A DNA stretch of 63,845 nt, filler included, from Reclinomonas americana ATCC 50394 (GCA_048213135.1; 10 parts of 4 records of this genome joined end to end with filler, not necessarily neighbours in it); one strand, 5' to 3'. Positions 36,986 to 52,337 are shown, counted from the first letter of the whole stretch. Numbers and translations are program-made. Notes: generated from the sequence alone by a model not told the origin.

Positions 36986-37661
36986 TGGGGAAGAGGTGCG
37001 ACGATTGGAGGGACACACTCATTGGGTGATGTCTGTCGCCGTCGCTCGCGATGGTCGGCATGTTGTGAGCGGGAGCTATGATAGAACAGTGCGTGTGTGG
37101 TCCCTCGGGAGTGGAGAACAAGTGCGACGGCTGGAGGGACACGCAGATTGGGTGTGGTCTGTCGCTTTCTCTCCCGACGGGCAGCACGTGGTGAGTGGGG
37201 GTGAGGACAGAGTAGTGCGAGTGTGGTCTGTTGCGAGTGGCGAAGAAGTGCGCCGGTTGGAAGGGCACACTGGATGGGTGAGGTCTCTCGCTTTCACTCC
37301 CGACGGCAAGCATGTTGTGAGTGGCAGTGAGGACAAGACCGTGCGAGTGTGGTCACTGGCGAGCGGGGAGGAAGTGCACCGACTGGGACACTCATTTTCG
37401 GTGGAGTCAGTCGCCATCGCTTCCAATGGTCAACACATCGTGAGCGGCAGTGCGGACAAGAGATTGCGTGTTTGGTCCACTCCATGCGGCCTCGCGCGGC
37501 TGGAACTCTTCGCAGCGCGCTCGGCCATGCGTGCAGTGCAGGGAATGTTGCCGCAAGGTGATGTGCGGTGCCTGCCGGAGATGGTACTGCGCTGCTTTAT
37601 TGTCGAGGAGGCGGAGGTCGTGGTGCACCGATCGTTTGCCGACCCCGAGTTGTCTCTGTGA
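36986..37661 (+). CDS. WD40 family copy 1 (5' lost in gap; 4 repeats visible plus conserved tail)
   Basis: LEGHxxWVxSVAxxxDGxHVVSGSxDxTVRVW repeats; tail STPCGLAR...CLPEMVLRCFIVEEAEVVVHRSFADPELSL*. Confidence 0.9.
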
Positions 37662-38021
37662 GCCGATTGCCATGGGAGGATGGGGCCGTCAGCTTCTGTC
37701 ACGTGTGCTTTCCTCCATTTCGTATTCAAGACAGCTGTTGCTTGTTTGTTGGTGAATGAATTTGTTGTTGTTATTGTGTGGTGAATGAAGTGTTTTCGCG
37801 ACATTTCAGTGGTGCTCATCATGCAGCTGCGGACAACTAAAGTTGTTCATTCGAATCTTCTGTAGACAACCCGCAGAAACGGGCATCTACAGTGCATTGT
37901 TGTCACACACACGCGCGCAACGAGGCACTCTTGCCCATCACGCGCACACACACTCTCAATCTCCTCCACTCTATCTCTATCTCTCGTCCACTGGTGCGCG
38001 CGCGCGTGTGTTTTGTTCGAC

Positions 38022-38597
38022 ATGCCGGTCGGCACGCGCTCCTCTCCACCCCCACTCTCTCCCATCACCGACGACGCGCCTCCCTCACACATGGTCACAC
38101 GCTCATTACCCAACGCCGACCTTACTGCTGACGAGGAGGAGGAAGACAATGACGAGGAAGAAGATGATGATGACACGCGTGCCACCACACTCAACAGCAC
38201 CGTCATTCACACACAGTCGGCGGGCGAGACCACCATCGCACTCGTCGAGGAGGACATGACACCGGTGCCGGTTGCCCGACGGAAACGACGACGTCACAAG
38301 CGCACTTCATCGTCGTCCTCAGCTTCAGCATCCACGCATCATCATCATCATCATCATCGGAGGGTTGTTCGTGTCATTGTCCCGCCGGCGAGCGAGGCCG
38401 AGCAGCAGCGCAAGCGGCGGCGGAAGTCGATGTCGACCGTGTTGCGCAATGAGGGCGTGGAGGGGGATCGCGATGCGCATCACGATTTGCAAGTGCGTGT
38501 GCTGGGCGGGCTGTTGATTGCGATGAGTGGGGCGTTGCCGGCGGTCATGTCGGCGTCGAAAGTTGCGCAGGAGAAGGAGGACGGCTGTGCTGGATGA
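38022..38597 (+). CDS. Unidentified low-complexity protein (acidic tract, basic NLS-like runs, polyHis); probably spliced further
   Basis: Open frame with a D/E tract, RRKRRRHKR and H7. Possible donor at ~38493. Confidence 0.4.
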   Translation: MPVGTRSSPPPLSPITDDAPPSHMVTRSLPNADLTADEEEEDNDEEEDDDDTRATTLNSTVIHTQSAGETTIALVEEDMTPVPVARRKRRRHKRTSSSSSASASTHHHHHHHRRVVRVIVPPASEAEQQRKRRRKSMSTVLRNEGVEGDRDAHHDLQVRVLGGLLIAMSGALPAVMSASKVAQEKEDGCAG

Positions 38598-38956
38598 TGG
38601 GAGCGCTGTTGTAATGATGTATTTGATTGTCTGTATAGCCGGAATTGTTTAGTTTGACGGGACCGGCGGCCTCGGTGCTGTTTGCGTTCTGCAGTATGGT
38701 GATGTGTGCCGTTGCGGCGGCGATTACGTGCGTGTGCCCGCATTCGCGAGGTTTGTAATGCGGCAGGCTGCGTGGATTCTGCAGTTCGTCAATTGTTGGC
38801 TCTTGTCTCCACCGCTCGGACTCGTTTCCTCCTCTCGCTGCTTCCTCTCGCTCTCCNNNNNNNNNNNNNNNNNNNNNNNNNNNNNNNNNNNNNNNNNNNN
38901 TTAATTAATTAANNNNNNNNNNNNNNNNNNNNNNNNNNNNNNNNNNNNNNNNNNNN

Positions 38957-49463: not shown

Positions 49464-49583
49464 AATTTGCCCTCCATCTCTCAATCACGCACACACTGCA
49501 CATAATTTGCCCTCAATCACGCGGCCTCTCCGTCACGCACACATCCATCTCTCTCCCTTCCCCCCTTTTTTTCTCTCAAGCCC

Positions 49584-50995
49584 ATGTCCACTCCTCCCCG
49601 CCCAATCCTCCTCTGCCACCGCGTGCTGGAGGGCTTCGCCATGACATCTGCTACCTTCACCCCCGACGGTCAATTCGTCGTCACTGGGAGTTGGAACGGA
49701 ACAGTGCGTGTGTGGTGCGTGGCGAGTGGAGAAGTGGTGCGACGGCTGGAGGCACACTACTATCCGGTGAACTCTGTCGCCGTCACTCCCGACGGGCAGT
49801 TCGCCATCAGCGGCTGTGCGGACAAGTTTGTTCGCGTGTGGTCGCTGGCGAGTGGGAAGGAGGTGCGACGATTCGAGGAGCACACCGATGCGGTGAAATC
49901 CGTCACCGTCACCCCCGACAGCCTGCACGTGGTGAGCGCGAGCGAGGACAAGACCGTCTGTGTGTACTCCATTGNNNNNNNNNNNNNNNNNNNNNNNNNN
50001 NNNNNNNNNNNNNNNNNNTTAATTAATTAANNNNNNNNNNNNNNNNNNNNNNNNNNNNNNNNNNNNNNNNNNNNCACAATGCGCTGACCATCGGCAGCAA
50101 CGGCGGCAGACCGCACCCAGTCAGTGTGTCCCTCCAACCGTTGCACCTCATCGCCACTCGCCAGTGACCACACGCGCACGATCTTCTCGTAACTCCCACT
50201 GACAACGAACTGGCCGTTGGGAGAGACGGCGACAGAGAGCACCGAAGCAGTGTGCCCCTCCAAACGTCGCACCTCCTTGCCACTCGCCAGTGACCACACA
50301 CGAATAGTGTTGTCGGCACTGCCACTGACGATGTGCTGCCCATCGGGAGTGACGGCGACGCTGTTGACTCCTCCAGCATGTCCCTTCAACAGTCGCACTT
50401 GCTCACCACTCGCCAGCGACCACACTCGCACTGTCTTATCGCAACTCCCGCTCACCACGTGCTGCCCGTCGGGAGTGACAGCGACAGACGTCACCCAGTC
50501 AGTGTGACCCTCCCACTGTCGCACGCCTTCCTCGCCAGNNNNNNNNNNNNNNNNNNNNNNNNNNNNNNNNNNNNNNNNNNNNNNNNNNNNNNNNNNNNNN
50601 NNNNNNNNNNNNNNNNNNNNNNNNNNNNNNNNNNNNNNNNNNNNNNNNNNNNNNNNNNNNNNNNNNNNNNNNNNNNNNNNNNNNNNNNNNNNNNNNNNNN
50701 NNNNNNNNNNNNNNNNNNNNNNNNNNNNNNNNNNNNNNNNNNNNNNNNNNNNAGTTCGAGTGGAGATGCCACAGTTCGCGTGTGGTCGACTCCGTGCGGT
50801 TTTGCGCAGCAGGAGCTTCTCGCGGCGCGATCGGCAATGGAGGGCGTGCGGGGGATGCAGCAGCAGCAGCGACAGGAGGAAGAGGAAGAGCCGGACTCCC
50901 GATGCCTGCCAGAGATGGTGTTGCGCTGCTTCATTGTCGAGGAGGCGGCCGTGGTGGTGCATCGAATGCTGGCCGACCCCAAGATGCACCTGTGA
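49584..50995 (+). CDS. WD40 family copy 2 (7 repeats plus tail; middle contig 50075-50538 is mis-oriented)
   Basis: Flipping 50075-50538 gives in-frame joins VYSI|AGEEGVRQWEGH and DGQRIV|SSSGDATVRVWSTPCG. Tail CLPEMVLRCFIVEEAAVVVHRMLADPKMHL*. Confidence 0.88.
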
Positions 50996-51263
50996 GCCGA
51001 GCTGCAGCTGTGCGTCCTTCCACCTCTCTCCTTCGCCTCTCCTTCGCCTCTCCTTCTCCTTTGTCTTCGTTTTCGTTGCCCTCTCAATAAAGAATGAATT
51101 GTTCACAGCATTTCCTGTCCAGGGCAAGCTCTCCGCTCTCTCTGCACTCACAGAGTTCGTGCCTTGGCAACGTCGGCAGGCAAACAGGACACCCAATTTC
51201 CTCTCCACCACGTTAACGGTGCATCTCACACTCTCCCACTCTCCCACTCTCTCTTTGCGATCC

Positions 51264-52337
51264 ATGTCCACTCCTTCTCGCCCTATCATCCTCTGCCAGC
51301 ATGTCTTGAAGGGACACGCCCGGGCGGTGACCTCTGTCGCCATCACTCTCGATTGTCAACGCATCATCAGTGGTAGCATCGACAAAACAGTGCGTGTGTG
51401 GTCACTGGCGAGTGGCGAGGAGCTGCGACGCATGGATTCTCACGCTGACGAGGTGAACTCAGTCGCCGTCACTCCCGATGGTCAGTTCGCTGTCAGCGGG
51501 AGTGATGATAAAACAGTGAGGGTGTGGTCGACGGCGACGGGAGAAGAAGTGCAACGGTTGGAGGGACACACGAGGAGAGTAGACTGTGTTGCTGTCTCTC
51601 CGGACGGGCAACTCATCGTGAGCGCGAGTGCCGACAAGACTGTGCGAGTGTGGTCGCTGGCGAGTGGAAGGGAAGTGCGCCGGTTGGAGGGACGCATGCT
51701 CTCAGTCGCCGTCACTCCCGATGGCCAGTACGTAGTGGGCGGGGGTGTCGACAAGACAGTGCGAGTGTGGTCTCTGGCGAGTGGCGAGGAAGCGCGAAGG
51801 CTGCAGGGTCATGCTGGCTGGGTGATGTCTGTCGCCGTCACCGCCGACAGTCAGTTCATCGTTAGTGCGAGTTACGACAACACAGTGCGTGTGTGGTCAC
51901 TGGCAAGTGGAGAACAAAGGAGTCAGCTGGAGCACACAGCTTGGGTGTTCTCTATCGCCATCACTCCCAATGGGCAGTTCGTTGTCATTGGGAGCTTGGA
52001 CAACATAGTGCACGTGTGGTCTCTGGCGAGTGGCAAAGAGGTGCAAGGGTTGGAGGGTCACACTGAGGGCGTGCAGTCTGTCGTCGTCTCTCCCAACGGT
52101 CAGCACATTGTGAGCTCGAGTGGCCACAGTGACAAGACGATCCGCGTGTGGTCCACTCCGTGCGGCCTCGCTCGGCAAGAGCTCCACACAGCGCGCTCGG
52201 CGATGCTGGCTGTTCAGGAGATGCAGCAGCAGGAAGACTCTCGATGCCTGCCAGAGATGGTGCTGCGCTGTTTCATTGTCGAGGAGGCCGAAGTTGTGGT
52301 GCATCGATCGTTTGCCGATCCCGAGTTGCATCTGTGA
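51264..52337 (+). CDS. WD40 family copy 3 (complete, intronless, 357 aa, 7 repeats plus tail)
   Basis: Uninterrupted ORF from MSTPSRPIILCQHVLKGH to CLPEMVLRCFIVEEAEVVVHRSFADPELHL*. Confidence 0.95.
   Translation: MSTPSRPIILCQHVLKGHARAVTSVAITLDCQRIISGSIDKTVRVWSLASGEELRRMDSHADEVNSVAVTPDGQFAVSGSDDKTVRVWSTATGEEVQRLEGHTRRVDCVAVSPDGQLIVSASADKTVRVWSLASGREVRRLEGRMLSVAVTPDGQYVVGGGVDKTVRVWSLASGEEARRLQGHAGWVMSVAVTADSQFIVSASYDNTVRVWSLASGEQRSQLEHTAWVFSIAITPNGQFVVIGSLDNIVHVWSLASGKEVQGLEGHTEGVQSVVVSPNGQHIVSSSGHSDKTIRVWSTPCGLARQELHTARSAMLAVQEMQQQEDSRCLPEMVLRCFIVEEAEVVVHRSFADPELHL

What the first reader, a model, noticed from the sequence alone, without database searches (positions are those of the whole stretch)
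36986..52337. Intronless 7-blade WD40 family with a fixed scaffold and hypervariable surface positions (HET-E-like)
Seen in sequence: three paralogues have highly similar repeats (VRVWSLASGEEVRRLEGH...SVAVTPDG..VSGS.DKT), but they differ at the same few positions in nearly every blade. After GH these read THWVM, ADWVW, TGWVR, ARAVT, ADEVN, TRRVD, AGWVM, TEGVQ, YYPVN, TDAVK, TDWVT, AGGVN, TASVL and TDWVR; in SGSxD, x = Y/E/A/I/D/C. The genes lack introns in an otherwise intron-dense genome. Established knowledge: high internal repeat identity with variation at these top-face positions characterises the diversifying WD40 sensor domains of fungal HNWD/HET-E NLRs. Inference: these are stand-alone variable recognition proteins with no NACHT domain, possibly an undescribed protist non-self sensor family.
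Basis: partly seen in the sequence, partly recalled or inferred. Interest (0 to 1): 0.78.

Follow-up and report, generated by a model that had tools for sequence, protein, structure and literature searches.

The report
Old WD40 propeller family, orphan tail
Three old gene copies encode ordinary-looking seven-bladed WD40 propellers that share a unique conserved tail; the blades differ where all such propellers differ, and nothing shows the fast, immune-like diversification that was proposed.

Summary
Three WD40 paralogues are present and all 14 quoted motifs are there. Four of 42 blade columns carry nearly all the variation. The layout needs correcting. The window is about 10 scaffolds joined by artificial stop-linkers. 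Only gene C (51264-52337) is intact. Gene A has lost its 5' end to a gap. Gene B lies in three pieces, the middle one inverted, and they rejoin in frame to seven blades.

The HET-E-like reading is not supported. Blades are 68% identical in DNA, dS about 0.9, against up to 100% in HET-E. Blades within a gene are no more alike than blades between genes, and blade order is conserved, so there is no concerted evolution or shuffling. No site shows a non-synonymous excess (0 of 42). Omega at the variable sites is about 1.5, with an interval that includes 1, near saturation. No NACHT domain is nearby. Thirteen unrelated WD40 arrays vary at the same columns.

The new element is an orphan 57-residue C-terminal tail under purifying selection (omega 0.13-0.20). 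Its only match in 1.84 billion proteins is a Reclinomonas americana EST. It is most likely a jakobid-restricted adaptor family.

The parts
36987..37661 (+). Gene A, 3' part: 4 WD40 blades, the C-terminal tail and the stop codon. The 5' part is lost in the 20-N gap at 36966-36985.
   Evidence: Translation; Pfam WD40 in 4 stretches; tblastn 66% identity to gene C residues 135-357.
49584..49974 (+). Gene B, 5' part: start codon and blades 1-3, ending at the end of an assembled segment.
   Evidence: tblastn 58% identity to gene C residues 1-132; the ORF opens 26 codons after a stop and the first ATG is homologous to the gene C start (D9).
49975..50074 (.). Artificial joint (44 N, a 12-base six-frame stop linker, 44 N) between two separately assembled segments.
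   Evidence: there are nine identical joints in the window.
50075..50538 (-). Gene B, middle part: blades 4-6 and the first 27 residues of blade 7. It sits on the minus strand as a 464-base island and is most likely a misoriented contig.
   Evidence: Translation. Once flipped it abuts both neighbouring pieces in frame and gives exact 42-residue blades (coordinates). It is 82% identical to blades 6-7 of gene C (I6). The EST P0126 runs colinearly from this blade into the tail.
50539..50752 (.). A 214-N scaffold gap, probably spurious (true gap about zero once the island is flipped).
   Evidence: 27 + 15 residues on its two sides make one 42-residue blade.
50753..50995 (+). Gene B, 3' part: the last 15 residues of blade 7, the tail (with an 8-residue acidic insert) and the stop codon.
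   Evidence: Translation; tail alignment; 74% identity to EST P0126.
51264..52337 (+). Gene C: complete, intronless, 357 codons, with a 7-blade WD40 propeller and the tail.
   Evidence: Translation; Pfam WD40 in 7 stretches; AlphaFold2 mean pLDDT 90, 28 strands in 7 blades.
52164..52334 (+). Orphan C-terminal tail of gene C (57 residues). It is predicted as two helices and contains a core of 16 consecutive residues that is invariant in all four known copies.
   Evidence: Alignment; omega 0.13-0.20 at dS 0.8-1.0; no Pfam, PDB or Atlas match; one hit among 1.84 billion representatives.

Best explanation
The locus holds three anciently duplicated members of a lineage-restricted (probably jakobid) family of small stand-alone proteins. 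Each is a closed seven-blade WD40 beta-propeller of the consensus-like, 'moderately repetitive' type, followed by a family-specific helical tail of about 57 residues.

Shown: purifying selection holds the propeller scaffold and the tail. The four top-face positions of each blade (the d-a loop and start of strand a, and the b-c turn) have been replaced almost completely between blades and between paralogues. Blade order is conserved.

Inferred: each paralogue offers a different top-face binding surface, and the invariant tail docks all of them to one common partner or place. That makes them modular adaptors, with the logic of substrate-receptor families rather than of NLR sensors. The divergence is old, and there is no evidence of ongoing, recombination-driven diversification.
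For: WD40 in 7 stretches and a confident 7-blade model.
DHSW tetrad residues are kept: H in 16 of 18 blades, S/T in 16 of 18, D in 16 of 18, W in 17 of 18.
Scaffold columns have pS 0.53, pN 0.22 and omega about 0.28.
Tail: A-C 82% identical at dS 0.89, omega 0.13; B-C 0.18; A-B 0.20. A core of 16 consecutive residues is invariant in 4 of 4 copies.
Same-position blades of different genes are more alike than other pairs: 0.697 (n=13) against 0.618 (n=81), permutation p = 0.0002. Within-gene pairs score 0.613 (n=42).
Identity at the variable sites between same-position blades is 7 of 46, or 0.15.
By DSSP on the model, the variable sites fall in the d-a loop or first residues of strand a and in the b-c turn. 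These are the top-face hotspot positions of Wu 2012 and Paoletti 2007.
Internal identity by the Hu 2017 rule is 0.44, which is the MR class.
A family member is transcribed: the R. americana EST-derived ORF ends at the same stop position.
That EST shares 3 of 4 variable residues with blade 7 of gene B, although the rest of the sequence has diverged by 14-26%.
Against: No binding partner, localisation or phenotype is known, so the adaptor and docking roles are inference only.
The tail model is poor (pLDDT 46-77), and no F-box, SOCS-box or other docking domain is detected.
Variable-site omega is 1.49 with a bootstrap interval of 0.96-2.62. Past diversifying selection is therefore not excluded, and neither is plain lack of constraint with no ligand role.
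Only 3 genes and one EST fragment are available, and no whole genome is held.
The organism is inferred from a single database hit.
Confidence: 0.6

Rival explanations
1. One reading: a HET-E/HNWD-like diversifying recognition family, with stand-alone variable sensors for non-self whose top-face residues are under positive selection.
For: The variable columns coincide with three of the four selected HET-E codons plus one adjacent column. Variable-site omega is 1.49 and 96% of bootstraps exceed 1. Paralogues share only 15% of their variable residues. The family is lineage-restricted.
Against: Blades are 68% identical in DNA with dS about 0.9, against up to 100% identity in HET-E. Within-gene blades are no more alike than between-gene blades, and blade order is conserved. 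No long shared tracts exist; the maximum is 82-83%. None of 42 columns has a significant N excess. There is no NACHT or effector domain. The same columns vary in 13 of 13 unrelated WD40 arrays. The EST keeps 3 of 4 variable residues of blade 7 of gene B.
Confidence: 0.1
2. The variable positions are simply unconstrained and have no recognition role. In this case the paralogues are redundant, or they work through the tail or another face.
For: The N:S ratio at the four columns equals the neutral expectation (for example 16.8 N to 2.2 S against 0.86 expected). pN of 0.60 is near the random ceiling of 0.70.
Against: These positions are the general ligand-contact hotspots of WD40 propellers (Wu 2012). 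Bulky residues are frequent there: W in 7 of 16 blades at one column. The EST and gene B share 3 of 4 of them.
Confidence: 0.2
3. The propeller was acquired from bacteria, as an intronless, cyanobacterial-type repetitive WD40 array, and the tail was added in the host.
For: The nearest solved structure is a Nostoc WD40 protein, 2ymu (E 5e-126), followed by designs derived from such arrays. The best database hits are mostly metagenomic or prokaryotic WD40 proteins at 50-56% identity. The genes lack introns.
Against: Consensus-like WD40 sequences match each other whatever their descent. The hits include eukaryotes (Reticulomyxa, Linnemannia). Hits cover the propeller only, and no tree was built. 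The region's GC content is like that of its surroundings.
Confidence: 0.07
4. These are orthologues of a known conserved WD40 protein, such as WDR5, RACK1, or the Pex7-like Gcp1-3 of jakobids.
For: WDR5 and RACK1-type chains match at E 1e-49 to 1e-65. Jakobids do have lineage-linked WD40 proteins, Gcp1-3.
Against: The best matches are generic repetitive arrays, not WDR5 or RACK1. No hit covers the tail. Two tail motifs are absent from the 10 readable supplementary files of the Gcp paper.
Confidence: 0.03

Closest known systems
Consensus-like repetitive WD40 propellers: the HR and MR classes of Hu et al. 2017 (PMC5587647), for example the Nostoc punctiforme WD40 protein PDB 2ymu and the WRAP-T designs
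   Same: They share the same scaffold consensus, a conserved DHSW tetrad, and variation concentrated at the hotspot positions. The few old members of this class are likewise kept similar by purifying selection; Hu 2017 reports median omega 0.19 for these, against about 0.28 here.
   Different: Internal identity is only 0.44, so this is MR and not HR. The protein is a single 7-blade propeller with no other domain apart from an orphan C-terminal tail, and it is eukaryotic.
HET-E / HET-D / HNWD NLRs of Podospora anserina (Paoletti 2007, PMC1805685)
   Same: The repeat unit is 42 residues. Variable residues sit in the d-a loop and the b-c turn on the top face, in pairs flanking conserved residues.
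   Different: There is no HET or NACHT domain. Repeats are far from identical. There is no concerted evolution or repeat exchange, and no demonstrated positive selection.
Substrate-receptor families built from a variable propeller plus a short conserved docking box: WD40-SOCS box and F-box-WD40 proteins (recalled knowledge, not from a call)
   Same: This is a comparison of working logic only: a diversified binding domain combined with a small invariant module shared by all paralogues.
   Different: No SOCS-box or F-box match was found in Pfam at E up to 10, or in PDB sequences. F-boxes lie N-terminal to the propeller, whereas this tail is C-terminal. Membership is not claimed.
WDR5 / RACK1-type single 7-blade WD40 proteins
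   Same: They are similar in size and have a closed 7-blade fold with an N-terminal strand closing the last blade.
   Different: They have low internal repeat identity, are conserved one-to-one across eukaryotes, and lack such a tail.

Membership tests
WD40 repeat beta-propeller (Pfam PF00400) | Multiple WD40 repeats above the Pfam threshold | tested here: met
   Gene C: 7 stretches, 241.9 bits against a cut-off of 27. Gene A: 4 stretches.
WD40 repeat beta-propeller (Pfam PF00400) | Closed propeller of four-stranded blades | tested here: met
   AlphaFold2 gives pLDDT of about 98 over residues 10-297 with 28 strands. This is a prediction, not a solved structure.
HET-E/HNWD fungal NLRs | A NACHT NTPase (and a HET effector domain) N-terminal to the WD array | tested here: not met
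   Genes B and C start directly at the propeller. None of 135 neighbouring ORFs hits NACHT, NB-ARC or HET.
HET-E/HNWD fungal NLRs | Near-identical repeats (up to 100%) kept alike by concerted evolution within and between genes | tested here: not met
   Mean DNA identity is 0.68 (range 0.52-0.81) over 136 pairs. dS is about 0.9. Within-gene identity of 0.613 is no higher than the between-gene 0.618.
HET-E/HNWD fungal NLRs | Positive selection at four top-face codons per repeat | tested here: inconclusive
   A counting test finds 0 of 42 columns with N excess. Omega at the four columns is 1.49 with a bootstrap interval of 0.96-2.62, near saturation, and the pairs are not independent.
HET-E/HNWD fungal NLRs | Repeat-number and repeat-content polymorphism among strains | not testable with these tools
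   No other strain, genome or sequencing run was available.
Highly-Repetitive WD40 (Hu et al. 2017) | At least six repeats with all pairwise identities at or above 0.7 | tested here: not met
   The best six of seven blades of gene C have a minimum pair identity of 0.44. This falls in the Moderately-Repetitive class, 0.4-0.7.
Gcp1-3 (Pex7-like WD40 proteins co-occurring with the mitochondrial T2SS in jakobids) | Sequence identity with the catalogued Gcp1-3 proteins | tested here: inconclusive
   Two tail motifs were not found in the 10 readable supplementary files; 1 file was unreadable. No direct alignment was possible.
F-box / SOCS-box substrate receptors | A recognisable F-box or SOCS-box domain | tested here: not met
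   Pfam at E up to 10 finds no such family in the three tails. PDB sequences at E up to 10 give 0 hits.

The most novel reading that the evidence does not exclude
The invariant tail is a new, jakobid-restricted docking module. It contains three invariant cysteines and one invariant histidine. It would tie a set of propellers with different top faces to one common machine, giving an undescribed adaptor or substrate-receptor system that is analogous in logic to F-box and SOCS-box families but unrelated to them in sequence. A bolder version is that the propellers are an anciently diversified recognition repertoire.
Probability: 0.25. Interest if true: 0.5.

Novelty: new member of a known kind. 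Interest (0 to 1): 0.27.

Why it matters
The result separates a pattern that looks like immune-type hypervariability from the generic behaviour of consensus-type WD40 propellers. The same four positions vary in unrelated arrays, so they cannot by themselves mark a sensor. What remains of interest is modest: a small WD40 family with an orphan, strongly conserved C-terminal module. So far it is known only from this window and one Reclinomonas EST, in a protist group (jakobids) whose nuclear biology is little explored. The work also shows that adjacency in this window is partly artificial, which matters for any other finding made on it.

Tried and rejected
Whole genome of the window: none is held.

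Sequencing runs for 50753-53184: none was listed and no RNA holder was listed.

Tail searches. The word-indexed protein search found nothing among proteins of 196-625 aa and only the EST among shorter ones. Pfam at E up to 10 gave only a chance-level DUF4761 match (E 0.22) in one tail. PDB sequences gave 0 hits. The ESM Atlas gave no usable hit.

Earlier scan notes: none exist for this genome. One unrelated Anabaena caspase-STAND-WD40 note shares 3 of 81 words and was not used.

Literature. 'Reclinomonas' with 'WD repeat' gave 0 papers. 'jakobid' with 'WD40' gave 15 papers. I read passages of only one, the mitochondrial T2SS paper, whose Gcp1-3 proteins do not contain the tail motifs in the readable supplements. 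'Reclinomonas americana' with 'nuclear genome' gave nothing on a nuclear assembly among the 10 papers listed. I saw no description of this family in these searches, but that is not proof that none exists.

Not done: a search of the tail against an F-box or SOCS-box profile by profile-profile comparison, because no such alignment could be obtained with the remaining caps. No complex prediction or fold search was run, because the tail model is of low confidence.

Rows dropped. The two partial blade units were left out of the dN/dS, tree and identity counts, so 17 of 19 units were used. Seven of 20 control proteins had fewer than 5 blades recognised by the family HMM and were dropped. The controls were chosen from the best hits to gene C, so they are biased towards the same WD40 class.
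Full report
WHAT THE WINDOW IS. The window has 34 runs of N. Nine of them form 100-base joints made of 44 N, the 12-mer TTAATTAATTAA (a stop in all six frames) and 44 N. The window is therefore a chain of about ten separately assembled scaffolds, and adjacency across a joint is not physical evidence. No whole genome is held for it, and no sequencing run could be listed.

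WHAT IS AT THE LOCUS. tblastn with the intact gene finds five WD40 pieces and three tails, and nothing else in the window.
- Gene C (51264-52337, +) is an uninterrupted ORF of 357 codons. Pfam finds seven WD40 repeats. AlphaFold2 gives a seven-blade propeller with pLDDT of about 98.
- Gene A (36987-37661, +) keeps four blades and the tail. Its 5' part is lost in a 20-N gap, and the DNA upstream of the gap shows no WD40 similarity.
- Gene B is in three pieces: 49584-49974 (+; start codon and blades 1-3, at the end of one segment), a 464-base island at 50075-50538 that reads on the minus strand (blades 4-6 and 27 residues of blade 7), and 50753-50995 (+; the last 15 residues of blade 7 and the tail).

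REJOINING GENE B. If the island is flipped, the pieces join in frame: 390+1 bases, then 2+462, then 243 including the stop. Both joins then give blades of exactly the family length (40+1+43 residues across the first join, 27+15 = 42 across the second). Several other results agree.
- The island's end is 82% identical to blades 6-7 of gene C (I6).
- In a blade tree, blades 1, 2 and 6 of B pair with blades 1, 2 and 6 of C, and blade 5 of B falls next to blade 5 of C.
- An EST-derived protein runs colinearly from the same blade into the tail.
I conclude that B is an intact seven-blade gene of about 365 codons whose middle contig was misoriented, and that the 214-N gap is spurious. This is inference and needs PCR or long reads.

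THE OBSERVATION. In the alignment of 19 blade units, four columns stand out with 7-11 residue types and 2.4-3.3 bits: two in the loop after GH, the residue after the conserved V, and the x of SGSxD. Every other column has at most 5 types and at most 1.9 bits. By DSSP on the model these four columns lie in the d-a loop or the first residues of strand a, and in the b-c turn. These are the R1-2, R1 and D-1 top-face hotspots of Wu et al. 2012 (PMC3419727, passages read). They also match three of the four selected codons of HET-E (7, 9, 25, 27, with the same 18-residue spacing; PMC1805685, passages read).

IS THE PATTERN SPECIAL? No. I built an HMM from the family's blades and cut 20 unrelated WD40 proteins (best hits) into blades. 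Thirteen had at least 5 recognisable blades, and 7 were dropped. In 13 of 13 the four columns are more variable than the rest. In 11 of 13 at least three of the four rank among the eight most variable columns. Pooled, the five most variable columns are the same four plus the residue after the conserved Asp. The consensus of the mixed alignment shows the same fixed scaffold with x at the same places. Hu et al. 2017 (PMC5587647, passages read) describe exactly this for repetitive WD40 proteins. By their rule gene C has an internal identity of 0.44, which is 'moderately repetitive' and not 'highly repetitive'. The controls were picked as best hits, so they represent this WD40 class and not all WD40 proteins.

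IS THERE HET-E-TYPE EVOLUTION? Four tests say no or cannot tell.
1. Age. Across 136 blade pairs the scaffold columns have pS 0.53 (dS about 0.9) and pN 0.22. DNA identity averages 0.68, with a maximum of 0.81. The longest shared tracts reach only 82-83%. HET-E repeats reach 100% identity.
2. Concerted evolution or shuffling. Same-position blades of different genes are more alike (0.697, n=13) than different-position blades (0.618, n=81; permutation p = 0.0002). Within-gene pairs (0.613, n=42) are no more alike than between-gene pairs. The blades therefore diverged before the genes duplicated, and their order has been kept.
3. Site counts. I used a parsimony counting test on a blade tree, of the Suzuki-Gojobori kind. 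None of 42 columns has a significant non-synonymous excess (smallest P 0.16). The four variable columns show the neutral N:S ratio, and many scaffold columns are under purifying selection.
4. Rate. For the 13 same-position pairs, omega at the variable columns is 1.49, with a bootstrap interval of 0.96-2.62. The pairs are not independent, and pN of 0.60 is close to the random ceiling of 0.70. These sites therefore change at least as fast as silent sites. Saturation does not allow a choice between lack of constraint and old diversifying selection.
One further point argues against ongoing diversification. The EST fragment shares 3 of 4 variable residues with blade 7 of gene B, while the rest of the blade differs at 5 of 35 positions and the tail at 21 of 80.

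DOMAIN CONTEXT. The gene B ORF opens 26 codons after a stop. Its first ATG aligns with the gene C start, and DNA similarity begins at the ATG (D9). None of 135 ORFs of 75 codons or more in the three segments hits NACHT, NB-ARC or HET. The neighbours are a Myb-like gene, an RCC1-like gene split over several frames, an ankyrin fragment and an EF-hand. The proteins stand alone.

THE TAIL. After blade 7 all copies carry a tail of about 57 residues (65 in B). Between paralogues it is 70-82% identical at dS 0.8-1.0, with omega 0.13-0.20. A core of 16 consecutive residues is invariant in 4 of 4 copies. Three cysteines and one histidine are invariant, and the linker is of variable length and rich in acidic residues and glutamine. 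The model predicts two helices at low confidence (pLDDT 46-77). The tail has no match in Pfam, in PDB sequences or in the ESM Atlas. In 1.84 billion representative proteins it has exactly one hit (the same single hit). That hit is a 116-residue ORF from a Reclinomonas americana EST in EukProt, which ends at the same stop position. The family is therefore transcribed in a jakobid, and the window probably comes from R. americana or a relative. This rests on one hit, and the EST is only 69-77% identical to the window's genes.

RELATION TO KNOWN PROTEINS. The nearest solved structures are a Nostoc repetitive WD40 protein (2ymu) and designs derived from such arrays. WDR5 and RACK1-type proteins come well behind. 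Database hits reach at most 56% identity and cover only the propeller. The jakobid-linked WD40 proteins Gcp1-3 are Pex7-like, and the tail motifs do not occur in that paper's 10 readable supplementary files. There is no one-to-one housekeeping orthologue.

MECHANISM. Shown: a stable seven-blade propeller and a tail, both under purifying selection, and top faces that differ almost completely between paralogues. Inferred: each paralogue binds a different partner on its top face, while the common tail docks to a shared partner, which makes this a modular adaptor family. The comparison with F-box and SOCS-box receptor families is one of logic only and comes from recall; membership was tested and not met.

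VERDICT. The assembly layout needed correction. The immune-like reading is not supported on present data. What is left is a new, small, lineage-restricted member of the WD40 world with an orphan conserved tail.

Noticed in passing
4841-4940, 8630-8729, 20125-20224, 26904-27003, 38857-38956, 43642-43741, 49975-50074, 56456-56555, 61235-61334: Nine identical artificial joints (44 N, TTAATTAATTAA, 44 N). The window is a concatenation of about ten separately assembled scaffolds, so gene order across a joint is not evidence of linkage for any finding made on this window.
   Followed up: yes
50075-50752: A 464-base contig is placed in reverse orientation and followed by a 214-N gap that is probably spurious. 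Flipping the contig restores an in-frame gene.
   Followed up: partly
37650-37675, 50984-51005, 52326-52350: The stop codon and the roughly 6-10 bases after it are identical in all three paralogues, although silent sites in the coding region are about 50% diverged. This may be a 3'-UTR or termination-context element. It resembles a GTGAG splice donor, but the EST ORF ends at this stop.
   Followed up: no
52164-52334 and the homologous tails: Three cysteines and one histidine are invariant in all four known tails, with a variable-length linker between the first and second cysteine. A metal site is possible but untested.
   Followed up: no
34574-36274 (+): A Myb-like DNA-binding gene (Pfam E 2e-18) lies in one long ORF with long runs of glutamine, threonine and alanine.
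   Followed up: no
43872-45728 (+): An RCC1-like gene whose repeats fall in at least three reading frames. This is consistent with introns, or with frameshift errors in a draft assembly.
   Followed up: partly
27122-27481 (+) and 29134-29544 (-): An ankyrin-repeat fragment lies next to a gap, and there is a weak EF-hand match below the Pfam threshold.
   Followed up: no
48858-49500 and many intergenic stretches: Long CT/GA and CA/GT dinucleotide-type microsatellites (read as SLSL... and THTH... in ORF lists) flank the genes and coincide with several assembly gaps.
   Followed up: no
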